IMG/VR virus record: IMGVR_UViG_3300029288_000001
Span: 128,001 to 192,000 of that record
Strand: one strand, 5' to 3'
From: a virus
Lineage: Duplodnaviria; Caudoviricetes
DNA: 64,000 nt
The notes under the pieces are model-generated. The model had not been told where the DNA came from and searched no databases. It saw nothing but the letters and a program-made list of their open reading frames with translations. Shown piece by piece: positions 16,673 to 47,445 of this stretch (within the stretch, counting starts at the first letter, position 1; each line of letters begins with the position of its first letter). The translations under genes were made by a program, and so were the position numbers.

Positions 16673-16680
16673 GTATTAAG

Positions 16681-16820
16681 CGCGGCGGGGAGGATTTGAA
16701 CCTCCGTGCCATTACGGCAAACTCGATTTCGGTTCTCGGAGCGAGAATAGCAATCTCGGATTCAATTGTCGGGAATTGACAATTCCAGTCGAGCTGAATA
16801 CCAGACTATCGTACCGCCGC
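16681..16820 (-). tRNA. tRNA-Ser(GGA) with a 55-nt anticodon-loop intron
   Basis: Acceptor GCGGCGG/CCGCCGC with G73; long variable arm; CTCGA CT GGA A [55 nt] A TCGAG. Confidence 0.85.
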
Positions 16821-16908: not shown

Positions 16909-16918
16909 ATAGTAGTAG

Positions 16919-17502
16919 TGCAGAGAGCAGGATTCGAACCTGCGGGTAGGACCTTGCCAACTAGATTTCTAACGGAACGCTTTGAGTTTCGCTTTCTTAG
17001 TTTCGCGTAAATATCGAATAGCAGAAAATAAAATCATAGGATTTTCGTATGCTCTCCCAATCATTTGATTACAACTATTACATAATAATCCTCTGAATCT
17101 TTTTGTTCTATGATCGTGATCGACATGGAAGTTTCCTTTTCCTTTAGGTGTTTTTGTTCCACAAATTGCACATCTACGGTTTTGTCCATCCAAAATTTTT
17201 TCAAATTGTTCGATTGTCATACCATAGCATTTTTTCAAATTATTTTTTCTATCTTTTTCTTTTTGATGATTCATAGGATTTTTTCTATAGTTTCTTTGAT
17301 ATTTTGAATGACACGATTTACAATCTCGTTGATAACCATCTTTTTCCCCTTTGTTCTTATGAAACTCCGAAATGCTTTTCATTTCTCCACATACGATACA
17401 TTTTTTTTCATTCATAATAATTCCTATTCAATATTTATTTCGCTCTTAACCATCCAGGTAAAGGATTTAAGTCTAGCGCGTTGACCGCTCCGCCATCTCT
17501 GC
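16919..17502 (-). tRNA. tRNA-Leu(UAA) split by a 499-nt intron (16967-17465)
   Basis: 5' exon GCAGAGA...CTAGA CT TAA A (17502-17466); 3' exon A TCTAG, long variable arm, GCAGG TTCGAAT CCTGC TCTCTGC A (16966-16919). Confidence 0.9.
16969..17415 (-). CDS. Intron-encoded endonuclease VII-family (His-Me finger) endonuclease, probably homing
   Basis: CxxC...CxxC N-terminal zinc motif, YGMTIEQF, CAICG, HVDHDH and RGLLCNSCN. Confidence 0.9.
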   Translation of the reverse strand: MNEKKCIVCGEMKSISEFHKNKGEKDGYQRDCKSCHSKYQRNYRKNPMNHQKEKDRKNNLKKCYGMTIEQFEKILDGQNRRCAICGTKTPKGKGNFHVDHDHRTKRFRGLLCNSCNQMIGRAYENPMILFSAIRYLRETKKAKLKAFR

Positions 17503-17737: not shown

Positions 17738-17844
17738 TGGTGCCAGGAGATGGATTTTAACCACCAATCTCCGCGATGCGCTTTTCGCGGGGTCTTATCT
17801 TCGTCGCCAAAGCCTTTGTACTTCGGGCGTTAAACGATCCCAGC
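17738..17844 (-). ncRNA. Aberrant tRNA-like RNA with encoded CCA
   Basis: Acceptor GCTGGGA/TCCTGGC-A-CCA; T-arm GGTGG TTAAAAT CCATC; 10-nt anticodon loop; about 30-nt hairpin inserted in the D-loop. Confidence 0.65.
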
Positions 17845-34896: not shown

Positions 34897-36464
34897 TGTT
34901 GCAAGCCTTCCTCCTCTTCCCCTTCCCCTTTAACATATTTATCTAGTTTTTCGAGCCATTCTTCTTCTTTATTACTCCCAGCACAATCTAGATCCTTCGC
35001 ACGGTCCCATTGAGATTCAGCTAGACCTTTTCGCGTAGTACGAACCACGAACTCGTCGTTTGGCTCGATTACCACGATCTTCTTACCTTCTAAATTCTTT
35101 TGAATGTCAGTTCTCTTATTTCTTGCGTCGTATCTGTTAATTTGAATTACATCCTCGTTGTGGTCTTTTATATTCTCGTATTCTTTGATTAGTTTATTGT
35201 CTATAATAAACTCCTTTCCATAATCTCTCTTAAAATCTTCCATCGTGTAATTCTCGTCGAGCGTATCGATATAGTCTCCTGCATCGTTCCTCGTAGATTC
35301 GTAATAAAGATCATCTATTAAATTGTCAAAGTCTGTAGAATATTCTTCATTAAAAGCAACATAATTCTCCGCTATTTCAAGAAAATCCTTCTCTGTTATA
35401 AATAAAGGTATAATACTCTCAGTACCACAATAAATACCTCCTTCGTAGTCTTTTTCGTAGAAGTATACTTTCTTTCCCACATTGTCGCGTATTAAGTCTA
35501 TGAGATCTCTGGGTATATCTGGCACGGCTTTTTCGATCTTGTTTAATACCTTATCCCTATCGAAGTCTACGAGCTTTATTAAATACTCTAACTTGTTTTC
35601 ATCTTTCGATAAATCTTTTAGCGTCCCTGGGAATCTATGGAAATACTCTTGTATACCTCCTTTCTCTGTAGCCCACATCCTTGTGACCTCAGGGGACTTA
35701 CGCATAGATTCCTCTATCCTCTTAATAAAATAGCTTGATACGAGCCCTGGTGCCGCCTTGTTTATCAGTCCATACAATTGGTTCGTAAGCATTGGATCCA
35801 TAATCGATTCTGGGTCAAAATCGTTCTCGATATATCCTTCCATGCTTGAGTTAAACGACCAGAACGAGGTCCTCCTTGGGAAGAACTCCGTCATCTTTCC
35901 CTTTACGGATTCCGAGCTCTCAAATGCCTTGTGCATGAGATCGATTCTCTCTAGAGGAGACATAATCTGGTCGAGTTGTTGATCAAGCGACTTTGAAAAC
36001 TCTGCGGCGCTCTCTGAGGTAAGATTAAAACCTACATTTATGCACGCGTGTTTTCCGTAGGATTTTTTCTTGTCGGGACTAAGAATTTCGTAGTAGCCCA
36101 CATTACCAACATTATCTGGCTCTTTATTAACTACTACCCGTGCGACGAACTTGTCTTTATATGGATATTCTTTCTCTAACGGGAATTTAAGACACTCGTC
36201 CTCGATCTTTCTGGCAAGGAGACCTGTGGCAATGTTACCTACCGTGCCATAAATAGTAAGGGAATTATCTAGCGCTATAGGACATAATTTAACTTTCTCT
36301 TCCTTGGTAGCACCTTCTACGGCGTCCGCGCACGCTTTCGCTTTTAACCGTAGGTCCTTCTTAGAGAACTTCTCGTATTCTTGGTAAGAGACTTTCCACG
36401 GGTCTTTTCCAACGGAGATCTGGCACTGTTTAATCAGATCGTCTCGGTTCTTCTTGGTCTCTAT
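34893..36464 (-). CDS. Large hypothetical protein, paralog of 23881-25968; ATA start
   Basis: The frame is open 121 codons upstream of the GTG and is homologous to the paralog; GAGG lies 8 nt before ATA. Confidence 0.75.
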   Translation of the reverse strand: METKKNRDDLIKQCQISVGKDPWKVSYQEYEKFSKKDLRLKAKACADAVEGATKEEKVKLCPIALDNSLTIYGTVGNIATGLLARKIEDECLKFPLEKEYPYKDKFVARVVVNKEPDNVGNVGYYEILSPDKKKSYGKHACINVGFNLTSESAAEFSKSLDQQLDQIMSPLERIDLMHKAFESSESVKGKMTEFFPRRTSFWSFNSSMEGYIENDFDPESIMDPMLTNQLYGLINKAAPGLVSSYFIKRIEESMRKSPEVTRMWATEKGGIQEYFHRFPGTLKDLSKDENKLEYLIKLVDFDRDKVLNKIEKAVPDIPRDLIDLIRDNVGKKVYFYEKDYEGGIYCGTESIIPLFITEKDFLEIAENYVAFNEEYSTDFDNLIDDLYYESTRNDAGDYIDTLDENYTMEDFKRDYGKEFIIDNKLIKEYENIKDHNEDVIQINRYDARNKRTDIQKNLEGKKIVVIEPNDEFVVRTTRKGLAESQWDRAKDLDCAGSNKEEEWLEKLDKYVKGEGEEEEGLQH

Positions 36465-36585
36465 TTTCTTCGCCTCGCGATCTTTTTGGTTTATCTTCTC
36501 CCGCTGCCGTGTATAACACGCCAGGGAACGCCCGTTTCAAGCGTTCTTTCATTTCCTCGGGGGAAAGCTTTTCTTCGTAGCTCGT
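36430..36585 (-). CDS. Small protein, paralog of 25965-26111; probable ACG start
   Basis: AAGEDKPKRSRGE motif; SD GAGTGA. Confidence 0.55.
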   Translation of the reverse strand, partial: TSYEEKLSPEEMKERLKRAFPGVLYTAAGEDKPKRSRGEENRDQEEPRRSD

Positions 36586-36685
36586 ATAGATCACTCTTTA
36601 TATGGTATATACTACGCTTTATACTTTAATATACTTGATCCTAGGACATTTTTATATAGTTCTAAGGGTTAGTATTATTAATAAT

Positions 36686-38089
36686 ATGGACTTAAAGAAA
36701 TGCGATAGAACGCTCCAGCCGAGCCAGATTGGAACGCTACGCGCAATAGGAGAAGTAGCCTCAGAGCTAGGAGAAAGGTGCTATTTAGTGGGAGGAGCCG
36801 TAAGGGACTGTTTACTTGGAAAACCCAATAAAGACCTCGATATCGTGTGCTCGAACTCGGAACGCGTGGTTACGGAGCTCGCGTCTAGGTTAGAAAAACA
36901 AACGGGAAAGAAACCCACGGTTGCGACCTTCAAGAAGTTTGGCACGCACCAGATCAAAATGCTTGGAGAAGAGGTAGAGTTCGTAGACCCACGGAAGGAG
37001 ACCTACGCGTATCAGTCTATTAAACCAGAGGTATCGAAAGGAGACTTTACGGACGACGCGATGCGAAGGGATTTTACCGTAAACGCGTTATATCTTGGAA
37101 TACAGAAAGACGACTGGATGAAGGTCGTAGATTTAACGGGAAAAGGAATGGAAGACTTAAAAAGTAACTTACTTCGCACGCCGTTAGATCCTGAGGTGAC
37201 GTTCCGAGACGATCCTACGAGGCTATTAAGGTTATCTAGGTTTAACGCGTGTAAAGGGTTCGATATTGAACCTACTACGAAGGCAACTGCTAAGAAATCC
37301 TCTCCCGAGGTTAAACGCGTGCCGTTCGAAACGATCAAGCAGTTACTGGAAGACAGTATAACTTGTAACGGTTATGTGCGGTCGCTGGACGAGCTAGGGT
37401 TCTTGAAATTGATCGTTCCCGAGTTCGATCTCTTGAAAGGATTGAACCAAGGACCACACCACAGATACGACGCCGCAGAGCACACGCTTAAAGTTATAGA
37501 CGCTCTTCCAAAAGACTATAAGATGAGATTAGTAGGTCTATTACACGATCTCGGAAAATACGACGCGAATAAAGCGTTCTTTAACCTCCATGGACACGAG
37601 GAGTATTCTACCAATAAGGCTATTGAGATCGCCGACCGATTGAAACTCTCCAACGAAGACAAGAAGTATATAACGCACATGGTCCAGCACCACATGGACT
37701 TACTGCATTTAATGAACGAAGTTAAGCCAGAAATTAACAAGAAACCCAGCACGAAGGCTCTCCGCACTTTCATGAACAAGAACGAAGGTTACGAGAACGA
37801 TCTCATCGAGTTTGCCCACGCCGATATCGAAGCGACGGGCTATCCGAGACAAGACGATCATAGAAAGCTGGACATCATCCAGACGCTTATCCGCGACGAA
37901 AAAGCGAAGATGGGAGAGAAGCCGTTTAAGTTGCAGATCTCGGGAAAGGATGTAATGGACGCTCTTGGAATAAAAGAAGGTATGGAAGTCGGGAAGGCGC
38001 TTAGCGCGTTAAAGGATAAAGTGATCGAAGGGTCTATAGAGAATAAACGCGAGGATTTATTAAGATCGTTAAAAGATTTAAAGAAGTAA
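36686..38089 (+). CDS. cca: Class II CCA-adding tRNA nucleotidyltransferase with HD domain
   Basis: VGGAVRD..LG...DLDIV, RRDFTVNA, DDPTRLLR, flexible loop RKETY...P.V, and HD motif LLHDLGK. Confidence 0.9.
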   Translation: MDLKKCDRTLQPSQIGTLRAIGEVASELGERCYLVGGAVRDCLLGKPNKDLDIVCSNSERVVTELASRLEKQTGKKPTVATFKKFGTHQIKMLGEEVEFVDPRKETYAYQSIKPEVSKGDFTDDAMRRDFTVNALYLGIQKDDWMKVVDLTGKGMEDLKSNLLRTPLDPEVTFRDDPTRLLRLSRFNACKGFDIEPTTKATAKKSSPEVKRVPFETIKQLLEDSITCNGYVRSLDELGFLKLIVPEFDLLKGLNQGPHHRYDAAEHTLKVIDALPKDYKMRLVGLLHDLGKYDANKAFFNLHGHEEYSTNKAIEIADRLKLSNEDKKYITHMVQHHMDLLHLMNEVKPEINKKPSTKALRTFMNKNEGYENDLIEFAHADIEATGYPRQDDHRKLDIIQTLIRDEKAKMGEKPFKLQISGKDVMDALGIKEGMEVGKALSALKDKVIEGSIENKREDLLRSLKDLKK

Positions 38090-38093
38090 TATT

Positions 38094-38573
38094 ATGGACA
38101 AAGCTAAGATGATAATGTTTATCGGAGTTCCTGCAAGTGGCAAGTCCACGGAGCGAAAGAACTACCCAAAGGCAGAGGTAATCTCGCCAGATGACATACG
38201 GAAAGAAATATTCCACATTCAGTCCGACGAGAAGGTCGAGCCACAGGTCTGGTCTATAGTCATGGATAAAATGGAGAACTGTTTAAAGAAAAAGAAAGAG
38301 TGCCTCCTCGACGCTACGAACTTAAAAAGCGAATATCGCCAGCCGTTTATAGACCTCGCCAAGAAATACCACGCGGACACGGAAGCCGTGATCTTCGATA
38401 TTCCCTACGCGGAAGCGTTAAAGAGAGACGCCGCGCGACCCAAGGGAAAGGTCGTAGGAAAGGAAGTCCTAGAAAGGATGTATAGTAATTATAAGGAGTT
38501 TCTTAAAAACACCTCCATAAACGATCTAAGGAAGGAAGGGTTTAAGTCTATTAAAATAAAAACTACGGAATAG
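38094..38573 (+). CDS. Polynucleotide kinase-like P-loop protein (AAA_33)
   Basis: GVPASGKST, ISPDDIR, LLDATNL and R...R lid. Confidence 0.85.
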   Translation: MDKAKMIMFIGVPASGKSTERKNYPKAEVISPDDIRKEIFHIQSDEKVEPQVWSIVMDKMENCLKKKKECLLDATNLKSEYRQPFIDLAKKYHADTEAVIFDIPYAEALKRDAARPKGKVVGKEVLERMYSNYKEFLKNTSINDLRKEGFKSIKIKTTE

Positions 38574-42768: not shown

Positions 42769-42868
42769 GCGATCATATCTTGTAACAGTTTATAAGTATA
42801 GTATAGAAGTTAATATTAATAAACTCGTAGATCCATTTATATATTTAAATAGAATAGAACTAGATCGT

Positions 42869-42943
42869 AATGGCGTGGGTTAGCATGGTAAGACCGCAAG
42901 GTTCATGCCCTTGAAATCGCTCGTTCAAATCGAGCCGCCATTA
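42869..42943 (+). tRNA. tRNA-Met(CAU), initiator-like (A1:U72)
   Basis: Acceptor AATGGCG/CGCCATT A; anticodon arm CAAGG TT CAT GC CCTTG; T-arm GCTCG TTCAAAT CGAGC; TATA box upstream. Confidence 0.9.
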
Positions 42944-43134
42944 TTATTAGATCGTATGGATAGACCACAGATTTGTTCGGAATGCGATAATTGGAGCTGG
43001 GAGTTCGAGACCGACAGCATGCTCATGGGATACTGCGTGGTTAAGAAAGAAACCGTAGACGGCTTACTACAACCGTATTTCAATCGCTGTAATCGATTCG
43101 AGCGCGAAGAGTTTCCATGGGAGGAGAAGATAGA

Positions 43135-44491
43135 ATGGTAGATAAAAAGACTCTCCGCGACGTGGACAGCGTGGTCTGCGAGAACAAGGAGGTATGGAGA
43201 GACACACCTGCGGGACCAGGTCTACGGTTAGAGAAACAATTCGTGGAATGTCGCATATCCCATACGACCGTAGATGTGGAAGGAAAGCCGATGAAGGCAA
43301 TAGAGACCGTGCGAGGCGATGTTGGAGTGGGTATCCACGATCACGCCGCCAGTGCCTATATCTTCGTTCCAAAGAATCCTCGTCAGCGGTATAAAATGGC
43401 GCAGGTTTCTTTTAATTTTCAAGAATCCGACCACATGTATTGCGAAATTAACTCGCCTGGTAACTCCGATCATAAACTCGTAGAGTGCAGTAAGGAGGCA
43501 CGATGACATGGTAAATATGGTAGATAAGAAAGTATATAAAAATGTAGCACATGTAGAATGCTGGCACGATACGAAAAGTAATCCTAGTCACTGTGAAATC
43601 TTTTACGCTATTATCAATATCGAAGGAAAAAAAGAAGAGGTCATTTCACAGATTCAAAACATTTGGCAGGCTAGTTTCGCCGATACACCTGTAAGCGTAA
43701 ATGCGTATGGAAGTTCTCGTGGGCATTTTGCTTTTGATCAGATTAGCGTTAATTTTGATGGAGGAACTGGCAAGTGCGAAGTAGAAGAAGCCATCCATGA
43801 GGGGGGTATAAAAGGTGCTTCAATAAGATGTTATAAGGAGGCACGATAATATGATAGAGAAGAGAACCTTTAACGATGTATCCGCGGTAGATTGTAGTAT
43901 AAATCCAGACGAGAAGAAACTCTACTGTAGTATAGACCATTCCGTGATCGATATAGAAGGAAAATCAATGGAAACGGTAACGCAGCTTCCTCCTTTATAT
44001 GGCGCGTATATGTTCGATCTAATGTATTCTATCGCTAACATGGAAAATTTTACGATCACCAATACTGAGTGGAAATTCAATACTAATGATCACATTCGCT
44101 GCGAATTACTGGATGTTGATAACGATGCTCGCGTAAAACTAAATTGCAGGAAGGTGCTTCGTTAACGGATAAAGTTTATAGAGACATCTACGACCTGCAA
44201 TGTTTTAACAAATACAACGCGTCGGGAGAGAACGAGAATGTGCGGTGTAGAATAGACTACCATATCGTAAATATAGATGGAAAGAAAGAGACTGCGACGG
44301 ATTATATAGAAGGTAAGATAGAAGTAGTCATGAACGCGGTTAACCCTGCCGCTATAAAAATAGATTCCTCTCAAAATAAGCTAGATTACGCGAGGTTTGT
44401 TTTTACCCCTCTCTTATATCAATGCACGCTCCACGAGAATGGTTCTCTCTTAAAATTAGAGTGCGAGAACGCGCCTGAGGAGGAGAAGTAG
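43135..44491 (+). CDS. Four tandem four-Cys family paralogs (43135-43506, 43508-43849, 43851-44165, 44165-44491 with ACG start)
   Basis: Shared [DN][VI][ED]GK motif and four Cys. Confidence 0.85.
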
Positions 44492-44498
44492 AAATATA

Positions 44499-44966
44499 TT
44501 ATAAATCCTTATATTTAATAAATTTAGTTTGTTTAATTTCTGATTCTAGACAATTCCATTTTTTTAATTTATCCTCGTCATTTTTAAGATAGATTGGTAA
44601 CTCAAGCTCCACATATTCTCGATCGTTTTCTTCGTTTTCTTCGTCTGTTTTATGTGGATCGTAATATTTTTGAATTTTTGTATTAAAACCGCATTTAGAA
44701 CCTATATTCATTAAAATCTGGTTGTTTCTTTCGCTATATGGAGTAAACGCTATATATCCTTCCATGCTCAATCCTTTTGGATGATCTTGTTGTAGACCAG
44801 AGCAGGAATGATCCGTATGAGTGCCAGTATAATTAATACGAGAAACTATATCTGCAATTCCTTTATCTACATTATCCCAAGCTACACATACTTCCTTTTC
44901 GTTATCTTTACGAGGATATATAATATACCACTTTTTCTTATTAAACGCACTTTTTTTCCATACTAT
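44499..44966 (-). CDS. Protein with a TYW3-like motif; ATA start
   Basis: The extension contains VDKGIADIVSRIN..G..T..SCSG; an in-frame TGA lies two codons above ATA. Confidence 0.5.
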   Translation of the reverse strand: MVWKKSAFNKKKWYIIYPRKDNEKEVCVAWDNVDKGIADIVSRINYTGTHTDHSCSGLQQDHPKGLSMEGYIAFTPYSERNNQILMNIGSKCGFNTKIQKYYDPHKTDEENEENDREYVELELPIYLKNDEDKLKKWNCLESEIKQTKFIKYKDL

Positions 44967-45484
44967 AGATCATAAGATCGTATTCGTTCTATAAAAAACT
45001 TAATATAAAAGAAAGGGTCTTTAACATCTATGAAAGATTGTACTCGAAGGTTAATACGAAACCTCGTGTCGGGAATCGGACTCGAAGTAATGGCTATTGC
45101 CGCGCACGAATGGACGAAGGACAGAGTGCCAAAAACTGAGTCGAATGTGATCGCGGGAATGTTCGCCGTTACGGGGGGACATTTCATCGGTGCGGGACTC
45201 AATAAATGGCGAAAGTGTAGGCGATAAACATGGCTAAGAACAAGTTTACAGAACTATTAATGGAATTACTCGCGAATCGGTCCACCCACGCGGGCGTGTC
45301 CGATCAATGGAAAATGGCAATGCACCAATGTAACGATCACAAGGACAAGAAGGCGTGCGAACGCGCAGAGAACTATGGTAATGAAGCGACTAAGCTCGAT
45401 AAAGAATACAAGGAAGAGATTGAAGAGCTTAAGAAGCTTGACCCAATGTTCTATAACAAATAAATATTATGGGAGTTAGAAATA

Positions 45485-46451
45485 ATGGACGATATACAGA
45501 CCTTCAAGAATGTAGCGTATGTGTCGTGCGAACTACTTATTCGTTCCCATCATTTTGCGGGACGATCTCCTCCAATTCCACTTAGATGGGATTGTTATAT
45601 TCGCTCCGAGATAGATACCATTGAAGGGGATAAAGAAGGAAGAATCGAGACACTAATAGATCTTGAAGATGTGTTTATAGAAAATGTCTCGCCCGTTAAC
45701 CTACACGAGAGAACGTTTATTATAGGTAATAGCGTGGCTTATCCTCCCAGATACTTTCAATGTAAGTATTATTCCAATCTCCATAAGCTAGACTGCGAGG
45801 TGGCGAAGTAACGACCGACGATAGAAAGAAGTTCAATAAAACAATAGTAATACAATGCGATCCACACCCATCAGAGTATAATGTAGCTACTTACCTATGC
45901 GATCTCCACCACGAGGTTGTCACGGTCGAGGGGAAAGAGGAATCATACCTAGAAAAACTGCCCGTAGATCACATCGCGGTTCAACCAAGAACTAATGTTG
46001 GTTTCTATGTTCATGGACGAATGATCCAGATAGGAAGTCGTTCCTTACCTCTATTGGGTCTCCCTCAAAAATACATGAAGTGCGAGTATATTCCGTCTAT
46101 CTACCAATTAAACTGCGAGGGGATTGACTAACGAACATAACCATTAAGAACGTGATTAACATAGGATGCGAGGAGGACCCTCAAAATCATTTAGACGACC
46201 TCTATGGATGCTTAATCTCGTATAGAGCCATGGATGTAGAAGGAAAGGAATCCATCTTCCACAAACATGTGCATAACGCGATCCATATAGATACGAATAG
46301 AGTAGGCTTCCATAGATCGTCGTGGGACGAGGACACTCCTACCATGGAGGTTTCCTTCCGCGAAGAGATGGACGGAAAAGTCTCGTGCTCCATTCGAGAG
46401 ACTGGTTTAAACGGAGCATATCACAATATCGAGTGCCACAAAGAAGAATAA
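45485..46451 (+). CDS. Three tandem four-Cys family paralogs (45485-45811, 45811-46131 with ACG start, 46131-46451 with ACG start)
   Basis: [IV]EG[KD] motif; TAACG stop/start overlaps; the middle gene is absent from the ORF track. Confidence 0.8.
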
Positions 46452-46515
46452 AAAAAGATTTAATATATTTTATCTAATTTTACCCAACTTGTTCTTATAC
46501 CACCGATCTACCAGA

Positions 46516-47445
46516 TCAACCATTATAAACATATATATACTCTAATAAAGTTCCCGTTTTTTTAGTTTTGATCATCTTCGCGATATTCTCCTTTGTTGGT
46601 TCTAGAACGAATTCCTTTCTTTTATTAGCTTTAGAATGCACCCATAAATGGCATCCGTGACACAATAAGATTAAATTACTTAACACGAGTCGTAGCGATT
46701 TGCATTCGTATCCAATAATGTGGTGCACATTTGGAAAGTGCTCGTCGTATTGATTTATTGATAGTATAGTAGGATTACCACAATGTTGGCACATACCATT
46801 GTAGCGTTGGTAGGTGATCCTCCACGCCTTCTTCCATTCTCGTCTATGCATAAAGATATCTCTTTCCTTACTTATTCCTCCTTTCCAATTATAATTTCTT
46901 GGACCACTTACAGATAGAGCGATCTTTTTTTTAGTTTCTTCTGTAGGGTGTTTTCCTTTATGAGCTTCAATTGCTTGTTGTGAAAGTCTTCTACCTTTAT
47001 TTGCTTTACTAATTTTTCGTTTTGTTTCTTCCGATAGTTTCTTTCCCTTAAGGCTTATACTATTTGCTTCACCAATTCTTCGTTTTGTTTCTTCCGAAGG
47101 ATGTCTTCCTTTATTACTTTCGCTTATCTTTCTTCTTGTTTCTTCAGATAAACGCTTACCCTTATGAACTTCTGACATTCTTTTCCTTATTTCCAATGAA
47201 GGGTGCTTTCCAGTATTTGCCTTAGCGATCTTTTTTTTATGTTCTTTAGATAAAATCTTACCAATATTTGCCTGTCTTAATTTTTCTCTTGTCTCTTTTG
47301 TAATCTCTCTTTTCTTTATATTCTCAGCCATTATTATTCTTTGTTTATCTTGTCTCTCTTTATTATTGGGGTCGCACCAGAATTTATGGACACCTAGATT
47401 ACTTGTTTTTCTAAACTCTCTTCCACAAAACTCACATTTAAACAT
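46516..47445 (-). mobile_element. Free-standing HNH homing endonuclease with zinc finger and NUMOD3 repeats
   Basis: FKCEFCG...H; repeated (H/L)SEETKRKIS..KG; NYNWKGG; CQHCG...VHHI...NLILLCHGCH. Confidence 0.9.

What the first reader, a model, noticed from the sequence alone, without database searches (positions are those of the whole stretch)
42869..46451. Atypical initiator-like tRNA-Met directly upstream of a gene run with ACG starts
Seen: A1:U72, only two of the three consecutive G:C pairs in the anticodon stem (A29:U41), and U32, G37, C38. The gene sits apart from the tRNA cluster, under its own TATA box, ahead of paralogs with three TAACG junctions. Established: A1:U72 and the three G:C pairs are archaeal/eukaryotic initiator determinants, and anticodon-stem changes can alter start fidelity. 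Inference (speculative): a virus-supplied low-stringency initiator licenses near-cognate starts and works as a translational switch.
Basis: inference. Interest (0 to 1): 0.7.

Follow-up and report, generated by a model that had tools for sequence, protein, structure and literature searches.

The report
Viral initiator tRNA, altered anticodon arm
A 225-kb virus of Loki-type Asgard archaea carries its own fast-evolving copy of the host's start-of-translation tRNA with an unusual anticodon arm, and it really does begin about 7% of its genes at ACG, but the evidence does not tie that habit to this tRNA.

Summary
Window 42869-42943 (+) is a real 75-nt tRNA(CAU) with A1:U72, A29:U41, U32, G37 and C38. 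It has its own TATA-like box, and there are three TAACG stop/start junctions downstream.

The tRNA derives from the host-lineage initiator. Its best match in the closest Promethearchaeota genomes is their initiator tRNA (73.7% identity). It tops an Asgard-initiator covariance model at 75.8 bits, against 64 for elongator-type tRNA(CAU).

A related virus from another metagenome has the orthologous tRNA in the same place. Every stem difference between the two is compensatory, so the cloverleaf is under selection.

ACG starts are real and genome-wide: 27-28 genes, about as many as GTG. Two ACG starts align with ATG in the relative.

The proposed link, a low-stringency initiator that licenses ACG, is not supported:
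- The relative has the same start usage but a different anticodon arm (A31:U39, C33, A37, A38).
- At least 112 phage contigs carry initiator-like tRNAs with the identical loop, and the sampled DNA of 119 contigs with it (1.15 Mb) shows no ACG-start signal.
- The equivalent yeast stem mutations do not raise ACG initiation.
- Both viruses share a CpG excess and TpG deficit, which gives a simpler origin for ATG-to-ACG.

Earlier scan notes had already reported the ACG starts in this genome.

The parts
42837..42853 (+). TATA-like promoter box (TTTATATATTTAAATAG) 16-32 nt upstream of the tRNA 5' end
   Evidence: Sequence. The core TATTTAAATA also precedes the stand-alone tRNA-His, with 9 copies in the genome. 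A 13-nt identical motif precedes a host initiator-tRNA 3' half (L087). Promoter function is inferred.
42869..42943 (+). Virus-encoded initiator-derived tRNA(CAU): A1:U72, A2:U71, U3:A70, G11:C24, A29:U41, U32, G37, C38, A73
   Evidence: 57.8 bits Rfam; 75.8 bits on the Asgard-initiator model R1; 73.7% identity to the spliced initiator of the closest host-lineage MAG; orthologue in the related virus, differing only by compensatory stem changes.
42956..43141 (+). 61-aa four-Cys zinc-ribbon-like ORF starting 12 nt after the tRNA, with no Shine-Dalgarno motif
   Evidence: Conserved in the related virus (81% nt, 77% aa) with the same tRNA-then-ORF arrangement. No Pfam or PHROG match.
43135..43506 (+). 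Paralogue 1 of the small four-Cys beta-rich family, ATG start (ATGGTAG overlap with the upstream stop)
   Evidence: AlphaFold model is all-beta, pLDDT 82. No PDB fold match.
43517..43849 (+). Paralogue 2, ATG start behind AAGGAGG
43851..44165 (+). Paralogue 3, ATG start behind AGGAGG
44165..44491 (+). Paralogue 4, ACG start overlapping the upstream TAA (TAACG); AGGTG 8 nt upstream; first in-frame ATG is 55 codons downstream, past the first conserved Cys
   Evidence: The orthologue in the related virus also lacks any canonical start before the conserved Cys.
45485..45811 (+). Paralogue, ATG start; head of the second run
45811..46131 (+). Paralogue, ACG start (TAACG), GAGGTG 8 nt upstream
   Evidence: No orthologue in the held fragments of the related virus.
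46131..46451 (+). Paralogue, ACG start (TAACG), GAGGGG 8 nt upstream
   Evidence: The orthologous junction in the related virus reads ATGA, an ATG start overlapping a TGA stop (L310:234).
36602..38573 (+). Context: class II CCA-adding enzyme with HD domain (36602-38089) followed by an AAA_33 P-loop kinase (38094-38573). With a T4 Rnl1-like RNA ligase elsewhere in the genome (G000 35550-36617), this is a possible tRNA-repair set
   Evidence: Pfam hits. The same gene pair occurs in the related virus. The repair role is inferred.

Best explanation
This is a functional initiator tRNA gene that the virus captured from its Promethearchaeota (Loki-type Asgard) host lineage.

How it is made. It is transcribed from its own TATA box as the first element of a conserved unit: tRNA, a small zinc-ribbon ORF, then a run of four-Cys paralogues. 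tRNA end-processing would release it from that transcript.

What it does. It keeps the parts that mark an archaeal initiator for aIF2 and MetRS: A1:U72, A73, the CAU anticodon, R11:Y24 and the initiator-type D- and T-arms. It therefore most likely supplies Met-tRNAi during infection.

Why the anticodon arm is odd. The arm evolves unusually fast in this viral lineage while base pairing is kept. It has lost features that cellular initiators hold invariant (C3:G70, one of the three G:C pairs, C32/A37/A38). The same loop variants are common in phage-encoded bacterial-type initiator tRNAs. I infer that the arm is being remodelled in a virus-host conflict over the initiator tRNA, most plausibly escape from host nucleases or modifiers that act on the anticodon loop.

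ACG starts. These are a separate, genome-wide feature. They are near-cognate starts that arose from ATG under the virus's TG-to-CG compositional drive, and are read by whichever initiator is present.

Shown: it is a tRNA, it descends from an initiator, it has an orthologue with compensatory changes, the ACG starts are real, and the ACG signal is absent in phages with the same loop.

Inferred: aIF2 use, the conflict or nuclease-escape role, and co-transcription with the operon.
For: Host lineage. The viral RadA is 56-65% and the MCM 54-57% identical to Promethearchaeota/Lokiarchaeia proteins.

Initiator descent.
- The tRNA's best hits in the three closest genomes are their intron-containing initiator tRNAs.
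- Identity is 73.7% to the spliced G003 initiator, 62-70% to 13 Asgard initiators, and 59-60% to two Asgard elongator-type tRNA(CAU).
- On the initiator covariance model it scores 75.8 bits, against 64.6/64.3 for elongator tRNA(CAU) and 27-60 for other tRNAs.

Selection on the fold. The related virus (SRR12486999 contigs, 67-91% nt identity) has the orthologous tRNA in the same synteny, scoring 76.8 bits. The differences at 2:71, 6:67, 52:62, 29:41 and 31:39, and at 3:70 and 50:64 against the host initiator, are all compensatory, and none breaks a pair. The two tRNAs are only 67% identical while the adjacent ORF is 81% identical.

Loop variants in other viruses.
- The loop UUCAUGC flanked by two G:C pairs occurs in at least 112 IMG/VR contigs.
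- Their tRNA bodies look like bacterial initiators: 1:72 is non-Watson-Crick in about 79%, A73 in 54/63, and A11:U24 in 38/63.
- The variants CUCAUGC and UUCAUAA are equally common.
- None of 400 Asgard genomes has a tRNA with this arm.

Possible tRNA-repair genes: an Rnl1-like ligase, a CCA/HD enzyme and an AAA_33 kinase.

ACG starts are independent of the flagged features.
- They are genome-wide: 27-28 genes against 27 GTG and 3 TTG.
- They are not confined to stop/start overlaps: 9/28 against 119/337 for ATG.
- Orthologous starts pair ACG with ATG.
- CpG O/E is 1.44 and TpG 0.71 in the virus, and 1.20-1.29 and about 0.8 in the relative, against 0.69-0.73 and 0.97 in host-lineage genomes.
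Against: - There are no RNA data, so expression, processing, aminoacylation and modification are unknown.
- Three features invariant in 13 Asgard initiators are missing: G2:C71, C3:G70 and G29:C41. Full initiator competence is therefore not guaranteed.
- The nuclease-escape idea has no direct support here. No host nuclease was identified, and whether bacterial chromosomes also carry these loop variants was not tested.
- Both related viruses combine an atypical initiator with ACG starts. This is what the rival switch hypothesis also predicts, and the two genomes are not independent.
Confidence: 0.55

Rival explanations
1. First reader's hypothesis. The viral tRNA is a low-stringency initiator. 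Its weakened G:C stack, and a loop that cannot carry t6A37, relax start-codon proofreading. This lets ACG (and perhaps other near-cognate) starts of viral genes be used, and acts as a translational switch.
For: - Both related viruses carry an initiator-derived tRNA with one of the three G:C pairs replaced by A:U (29:41 here, 31:39 in the relative), and both have U3:A70 in place of the invariant C3:G70.
- Both also show SD-positioned ACG starts.
- In yeast, Watson-Crick replacements of the G:C pairs and loss of t6A37 lower start fidelity (PMC3950347). G37 cannot be t6A-modified.
- In about 790 kb of two host-lineage genomes there was little or no ACG-start signal.
Against:
- 1.15 Mb from 119 phage contigs with the identical loop show ACG below the median of other codons (31 against 45.5). 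In the AT-rich subset the SD association is 9/195.
- In yeast, G29A:C41U is nearly neutral, G31A:C39U raises only first-position mismatches and explicitly not ACG or AUA, and C3U:G70A largely restores accuracy.
- Only about 7% of genes use ACG, and they are scattered, so there is no obvious regulon.
- The CpG excess and TpG deficit explain ATG-to-ACG changes without a special tRNA.
- The host tests had low power, because few host genes use SD motifs.
Confidence: 0.12
2. The tRNA serves mainly as an RNA-processing signal. RNase P and RNase Z cleavage would define the 5' end of the downstream short-leader mRNA, and decoding would be secondary or lost.
For: - The next ORF starts 12 nt (21 nt in the relative) after the tRNA and has no SD. 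The arrangement is conserved.
- Selection acts on the fold, while the anticodon arm sequence changes freely.
- An earlier first-reader note describes tRNA-minihelix elements between genes of this genome (e1-5496333, not checked here).
Against: - The CAU anticodon, A1:U72, A73, G18G19 and the T-loop are all kept in both viruses. A mere processing signal does not need them.
Confidence: 0.12
3. It is an elongator tRNA-Met, or a tRNA-Ile2 whose C34 becomes agmatidine to read AUA.
For: - The CAU anticodon is shared by all three classes.
- The G:C stack is incomplete, as in elongators.
- The virus is richer in AUA than expected for the host (ATA is frequent).
Against: - The two Asgard elongator-type tRNA(CAU) found have G1:C72 and C11:G24. 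They are only 59-60% identical and score 11 bits lower on the initiator model.
- The virus already encodes tRNA-Ile(UAU) for AUA.
- G37 is not expected next to U36 in any ANN-reading elongator (general knowledge; not tabulated here).
Confidence: 0.08
4. It is a decaying pseudo-tRNA with no function.
For: - Several invariant initiator positions are lost.
- It evolves faster than the neighbouring protein gene.
Against: - Two lineages show five compensatory pair changes between them, seven when the host initiator is included, and no broken pair.
- Loop sizes are intact, the T-loop is conserved, and the promoter box and synteny are conserved.
Confidence: 0.03

Closest known systems
Archaeal (Asgard) chromosomal initiator tRNA-Met
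   Same: A1:U72, A73, the CAU anticodon, G10 with R11:Y24, D-loop AGCxUGG, G30:C40 and G31:C39, and T-loop UUCAAAU. The highest identity and the highest covariance-model score are to this class.
   Different: A2:U71 and U3:A70 replace the invariant G2:C71 and C3:G70. A29:U41 replaces G29:C41. The loop is UUCAUGC instead of CUCAUAA. It has no intron, unlike the initiators of the closest MAGs. It is encoded by a virus.
Phage-encoded tRNAs with anticodon-loop changes, proposed to evade host anticodon nucleases (van den Berg et al. 2023, eLife, PMC10264068)
   Same: A virus-encoded copy of a host tRNA species differs from the host version in the anticodon loop. The genome also carries RNA ligase, CCA and kinase genes.
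   Different: That paper reports that phages generally avoid encoding tRNA-fMet where VapC-LT2 targets it, and it concerns bacteria. Here the tRNA is an initiator in an archaeal virus, and no nuclease is identified.
Phage-encoded bacterial-type initiator-like tRNAs with loops UUCAUGC, CUCAUGC or UUCAUAA (IMG/VR contigs found here). Named phages such as Serratia phage BF carry CAAGG-CUCAUAA-CCUUG
   Same: The 17-nt anticodon arm is identical to several of them, and A:U at 29:41 is frequent (26/63).
   Different: Their bodies are bacterial: 1:72 mismatch, A11:U24 and often an encoded CCA. The window tRNA has an archaeal body and is closer to the host initiator (73.7%) than to any of them (at most 70.7%, and that figure includes the shared arm). 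I found no paper describing this class.
Yeast initiator-tRNA fidelity mutants (Dong et al. 2014, PMC3950347)
   Same: The same positions are altered: 29:41 and 3:70 here, 31:39 in the relative.
   Different: In yeast these Watson-Crick replacements give weak effects or effects specific to first-position mismatches. They do not raise ACG initiation.
Near-cognate ACG initiation in eukaryotes and their viruses (AAV VP2, Sendai virus C'; from my own knowledge), and the scan's earlier notes on ACG starts in archaeal genomes and on a prophage initiator tRNA with a CGU anticodon
   Same: ACG is used as a start codon. Here it sits behind Shine-Dalgarno motifs at normal spacing.
   Different: The tRNA here keeps the CAU anticodon, so ACG would be read with a C-A mismatch at the middle position. 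The earlier notes were not verified here, except those on this genome.

Membership tests
Archaeal initiator tRNA-Met | A1:U72 with A73 discriminator | tested here: met
   for the window tRNA. All 13 aligned Asgard initiators have A1, U72 and A73. The two elongator-type tRNA(CAU) have G1:C72.
Archaeal initiator tRNA-Met | Three consecutive G:C pairs 29-31:39-41 | tested here: not met
   A29:U41, G30:C40, G31:C39. All 13 reference initiators have the three pairs, but that set was collected with a pattern containing them. The intron-containing initiators of G001 and G003, found independently, also have them.
Archaeal initiator tRNA-Met | Purine11:pyrimidine24 in the D-stem (elongators have Y11:R24) | tested here: met
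   G11:C24. The Asgard initiators have G11 or A11. The G002 elongators and both elongator tRNA(CAU) have C11 or U11.
Archaeal initiator tRNA-Met | G2:C71 and C3:G70 in the acceptor stem | tested here: not met
   A2:U71 and U3:A70. These pairs are invariant in 13/13 Asgard initiators. C3:G70 is described as conserved in all kingdoms in PMC3950347.
Archaeal initiator tRNA-Met | Anticodon loop C32-U33-CAU-A37-A38 | tested here: not met
   The loop is U32-U33-CAU-G37-C38.
Archaeal initiator tRNA-Met | Higher score on an initiator-specific covariance model than other tRNA classes | tested here: met
   Model R1: 75.8 bits against 64.6/64.3 for elongator tRNA(CAU) and at most 60 for the others. Only one isotype model could be built. 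tRNAscan-SE was not available.
Archaeal initiator tRNA-Met | Binding by aIF2-GTP and exclusion from aEF1A; Met charging | not testable with these tools
   Needs biochemistry.
Virus-encoded initiator-like tRNAs with a variant anticodon loop (class seen in IMG/VR) | Loop UUCAUGC closed by G30:C40 and G31:C39, on an initiator-type body | tested here: met
   The loop and stem top are identical, and the 17-mer is identical to at least 4 phage tRNA backbones. The body is archaeal, not bacterial.
tRNA-Ile2 (agmatidine) | Elongator body (G1:C72, Y11:R24) with CAU and A37; TiaS recognition | tested here: not met
   A1:U72, G11:C24 and G37. TiaS determinants are not testable here.
ACG as a genuine start codon in this virus | SD at normal spacing, homology reaching the ACG, no canonical start upstream of conserved residues, and ATG at the orthologous position in a relative | tested here: met
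   There is no protein or ribosome evidence.

The most novel reading that the evidence does not exclude
Viruses of both bacteria and archaea carry their own initiator tRNAs with deliberately remodelled anticodon arms (positions 29:41, 31:39, 32, 33, 37, 38). These act as a general tool to keep, or to re-tune, translation initiation in infected cells. In this Asgard-virus lineage the remodelled initiator, which lacks t6A37 and the C3:G70 signature, would be what makes the roughly 7% of genes with ACG starts translatable. That would be a virus-specific start-codon rule.
Probability: 0.12. Interest if true: 0.85.

Novelty: new variant of a known kind. Interest (0 to 1): 0.45.

Why it matters
Asgard archaea have the most eukaryote-like initiation machinery among prokaryotes, and very few of their viruses are known. 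A host-derived viral initiator tRNA under selection for fold, but with a fast-changing anticodon arm, marks the initiator tRNA as a point of virus-host conflict in this lineage.

The same loop variants recur in at least a hundred phage contigs, which suggests a wider and apparently undescribed class of viral initiator tRNAs.

For annotation, gene callers truncate or miss about 7% of this virus's genes because they start at ACG.

If the minority reading were right, this would be a natural system in which a virus changes start-codon rules. It could be tested directly with Promethearchaeal aIF2 and ribosomes.

Tried and rejected
- Single-protein searches for related viral loci found nothing (773-aa protein and the 146-aa neighbour).
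- The paralogue alignment was too divergent for pattern scanning. Relatives were finally reached through a full HMMER profile search.
- Pfam and PHROGs gave nothing for the tRNA's neighbours or the paralogues. Terminase_6C was not found.
- The paralogue model had no PDB fold match.
- No RNA holder was listed for the region. The one DNA run is probably the source sample and is held only as contigs.
- A pattern search for intron-less CAU tRNAs in the three closest host genomes returned nothing, because their tRNAs carry introns. Only two elongator-type tRNA(CAU) were recovered from other Asgard genomes, so no elongator-Met or Ile2 model could be built.
- The host-genome ACG tests had low power, since only about 10-12% of first ATGs have an SD there.
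- I tested whether U32, G37 and C38 are a coupled triple.
- Literature searches for phage or viral initiator tRNAs with such loops found nothing. A search for ACG start codons in archaea found nothing relevant.
- Frameshift or readthrough fusion at the TAACG junctions was rejected. There is no slippery site. Each junction has its own SD at 8 nt. The relative has ATGA at one orthologous junction.
- One of my automatic ACG calls (genome 181524, minus strand) is probably false. The relative has GCG there and an SD follows it.
Full report
**What the window is.** The window is bases 128001-192000 of a complete 224,826-bp virus record with direct terminal repeats. The genome encodes MCM, a RadA with a helix-hairpin-helix domain, and a Cdc6-like ATPase. 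The RadA is 56-65% identical to Promethearchaeia/Promethearchaeota MAG proteins over its full length. The MCM's best hits, at 54-57%, are all Lokiarchaeia, Promethearchaeota, Thor- or Hermod-type proteins. This agrees with the earlier scan notes that it is a virus of Asgard archaea. The only public run holding the region is a landfill metagenome. Its independent Logan assembly is identical over 42800-46500 at about 17x, so neither the tRNA nor the ACG codons are assembly errors.

**The observation.** ARAGORN and Rfam (57.8 bits) find a tRNA(CAU) at 42869-42943. The parsed cloverleaf has every stem paired. The gene lies far from the tRNA cluster at 16.5-17.5 kb. A TATTTAAATA box lies 20-29 nt upstream and is shared with the other stand-alone tRNA, His. 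The three TAACG junctions are at 44163-67, 45809-13 and 46129-33. Each has a GAGG(U/G)G or AGGUG motif exactly 8 nt before the ACG. In the paralogue alignment each ACG falls within two residues of the initiator Met of the ATG-started copies.

**Are the ACG starts real?** I called about 400 ORFs by codon usage. For each of the 61 sense codons I then counted ORFs in which that codon has a Shine-Dalgarno motif at the spacing seen for ATG (6-11 nt) and lies at least 10 codons upstream of any canonical start.
- ACG gives 27 ORFs. The much more abundant AAA gives 15, and the median is 4.
- Many contexts look like textbook starts, for example AAGGAGG, an A-rich spacer, then ACG. Some ORFs of 137-170 codons have no ATG at all.
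- By my calls, starts are ATG 339, ACG 28, GTG 27 and TTG 3. ACG starts are no more often at stop/start overlaps than ATG starts are.
- Orthologous comparisons settle it (see the related virus below). The window's TAACG at 46131 corresponds to ATGA in the relative, and the ACG at genome 197777 corresponds to ATG.

Earlier notes of this scan (e1-5496305, e1-5496318) had already reported ACG starts in this genome. My tests agree with them.

**What kind of tRNA is it?**
- Searching the three closest host-lineage genomes with the tRNA returns their intron-containing initiator tRNAs as best hits.
- I collected Asgard initiators by their canonical anticodon arm (41 of 121 genomes) and aligned 13 of them. 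They are invariant for A1-G2-C3-G4 and C69-G70-C71-U72-A73, and have R11.
- The viral tRNA is 73.7% identical to the spliced initiator of the MAG with the most similar RadA. It is 62-70% identical to the other initiators and 59-60% to the two elongator-type tRNA(CAU) I could recover, which have G1:C72 and C11:G24.
- On a covariance model built from the 13 initiators it scores 75.8 bits. That is the top score, against 64.6 and 64.3 for the elongator tRNA(CAU) and 27-60 for other tRNAs.

So the body is an initiator body. It nevertheless fails three features that are invariant in the reference set (G2:C71, C3:G70, G29:C41) and has a non-canonical loop.

**A related virus.** A profile of the four-Cys paralogues, searched against 1.84 billion protein representatives, found proteins outside this genome. 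Their contigs all come from run SRR12486999. They are 67-91% identical to the virus at the DNA level and share its gene order.
- One contig carries an orthologous tRNA(CAU) in the same place: TATA-like box, tRNA, 21 nt, the same 61-aa zinc-ribbon ORF, then paralogues. It scores 76.8 bits on the initiator model.
- Its anticodon arm is different: CAGGA-CCCAUAA-UCCUG. That gives G29:C41 and G30:C40 but A31:U39, with C32, C33, A37 and A38.
- Between the two viral tRNAs and the host initiator, the pairs 2:71, 3:70, 6:67, 50:64, 52:62, 29:41 and 31:39 all differ by compensatory double changes. No pair is broken.
- The two tRNAs are only 67% identical, while the adjacent ORF is 81% identical. Each viral tRNA is closer to the host initiator (74-78%) than to the other.

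This is the signature of a functional RNA whose fold is selected while its sequence, especially the anticodon arm, changes quickly.

**The same loop in other viruses.**
- The exact 17-nt arm occurs in 23 IMG/VR stretches, at least 14 of them in tRNA genes on four or more unrelated backbones.
- The 63 distinct tRNAs are bacterial-initiator-like. Position 1:72 is non-Watson-Crick in about 79%, A73 occurs in 54, A11:U24 in 38, and 29:41 is A:U in 26, G:C in 24 and U:A in 10.
- One large group sits in 100-165-kb phages with bacterial-type tRNA clusters.
- The partial variants CUCAUGC and UUCAUAA are equally abundant on similar bodies. Variation at 32/37/38 is therefore a general property of virus-encoded initiator-like tRNAs, not a coupled triple.
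- Named jumbo phages checked have the canonical loop. Serratia phage BF has the same CAAGG/CCUUG stem.
- None of 400 Asgard genomes has a tRNA with this arm within one mismatch.
- I found no paper describing the class.
- Whether some bacterial chromosomes carry these loops was not tested.

**Testing the proposed link to ACG starts.**
1. The relative has SD-positioned ACG candidates at about the expected density (2-3 in 34 kb). It also has the same compositional bias, yet lacks all four flagged features.
2. In 1.15 Mb from 119 phage contigs with the identical loop, ACG ranks below the median of other codons. In the AT-rich subset (707 kb, 302 SD-preceded first ATGs) its SD association is 9/195. 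No non-canonical codon stands out.
3. Yeast genetics (PMC3950347) gives three relevant results. G29A:C41U has little effect. G31A:C39U raises UUG/CUG/GUG but explicitly not ACG or AUA. C3U:G70A, the viral state, largely suppresses the fidelity defect of G70A.
4. The virus has CpG O/E 1.44, TpG 0.71 and CpA 0.79. The relative has 1.20-1.29 and about 0.8. Host-lineage genomes have CpG 0.69-0.73 and TpG 0.97.

Points in favour of the link remain. G37 cannot carry t6A, whose loss lowers AUG selectivity in yeast. Both viruses combine an atypical initiator with ACG starts. My low-power tests found little ACG signal in 790 kb of two candidate host-lineage genomes. No relative lacking the tRNA was found, so the decisive co-occurrence test is still open.

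**Most likely mechanism.** The gene is a host-derived initiator tRNA. It is expressed from its own promoter at the head of a conserved small operon and used to supply Met-tRNAi in infected cells. Four things point to a virus-host conflict centred on the initiator's anticodon arm, with escape from host anticodon-loop nucleases or modifiers the most plausible form:
- the rapid change of the arm while pairing is kept;
- the loss of positions that, in the E. coli initiator structure, form the special A37/G29:C41 and C32:A38 contacts (as summarised in PMC3950347);
- the recurrence of the same variants in phage initiator-like tRNAs;
- the presence of an Rnl1-type RNA ligase, a CCA/HD enzyme and an AAA_33 kinase.

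That last step is inference. VapC-type toxins that cleave initiator tRNA are known in bacteria (cited in PMC10264068), but nothing comparable was identified here. A secondary role of the tRNA as a processing signal is also possible. It would create a short-leader mRNA for the SD-less zinc-ribbon ORF 12 nt downstream.

**Verdict.** 'Initiator-like' is supported. 'Licenses ACG starts' is not supported, though not excluded (about 0.12). It is a new variant of a known kind, namely virus-encoded tRNAs. The notable points are the archaeal (Asgard) host, the initiator identity, the compensatory but fast evolution, and the cross-domain recurrence of the loop.

Noticed in passing
L087 (G002:C46:400-700, minus strand): A Promethearchaeia MAG has a stand-alone 3' half of an initiator tRNA, running from UCAUAACCC to the CCUCGCU-A end. 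It is preceded by unrelated sequence and, about 45 nt upstream, the motif TATATTTAAATAG, which is identical over 13 nt to the box upstream of the viral tRNA. It looks like a split tRNA gene, or one with an intron at an unusual position. The same MAG also has an initiator with an insert after the anticodon arm (L133).
   Followed up: partly
L051 and L052 (G003:C141, G001:C1): The initiator tRNAs of the two closest host-lineage MAGs carry introns of about 26 and 50 nt in or just after the anticodon loop. The viral copies have none.
   Followed up: partly
window 16680-16820 and 16918-17502 (minus strand): With introns allowed, ARAGORN calls a tRNA-Ser(GGA) with a 55-nt intron and a tRNA-Leu(UAA) with a 499-nt intron in the tRNA cluster. 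A weak 104-nt tRNA-like match lies at 17741-17844.
   Followed up: no
whole genome; L309-L313: There is a strong CpG excess (O/E 1.44) with TpG and CpA deficits (0.71, 0.79). The related virus shares this (1.20-1.29), but candidate host genomes show the opposite (CpG 0.69-0.73). The cause is unknown.
   Followed up: partly
L309:3166-3241: The related virus's initiator-like tRNA has C33 instead of the near-universal U33, giving the loop CCCAUAA. From memory, that loop is the one found in vertebrate cytoplasmic initiator tRNAs. It also has A31:U39.
   Followed up: partly
L309:4132-4477: In the related virus the orthologue of the ACG-started paralogue (window 44165) has no ATG, GTG, TTG or ACG before its first conserved Cys. 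It lies in the same frame directly after the upstream gene's TGA. The gene caller left it uncalled. It could be an AUA start or TGA readthrough.
   Followed up: no
window 36602-38573; G000 35550-36617: A CCA-adding enzyme with an HD domain is followed by an AAA_33 P-loop kinase, and a T4 Rnl1-like RNA ligase lies elsewhere in the genome. Together they could form a tRNA-repair set. The CCA enzyme and kinase pair is conserved in the related virus.
   Followed up: partly
P0128: A 1,977-residue protein from another source matches the four-Cys paralogue profile in 13 separate stretches. The small viral domain therefore also exists as a long tandem-repeat protein.
   Followed up: no
window 46516-47445 (minus strand): An HNH homing endonuclease with several NUMOD3 repeats lies directly after the second paralogue run. 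The related virus has GIY-YIG genes nearby instead.
   Followed up: no
window 42869-42943: The whole-window Rfam gathering run and the first look of the genome search both missed this tRNA, although it scores 57.8 bits when the region is searched alone. Filtered scans can lose atypical tRNAs.
   Followed up: yes
L287 (Aeromonas phage ZPAH1 188056-188123): An unannotated initiator-like tRNA in a cultured T4-like phage has the loop CUCAUUA (U37). This is another position-37 variant.
   Followed up: no
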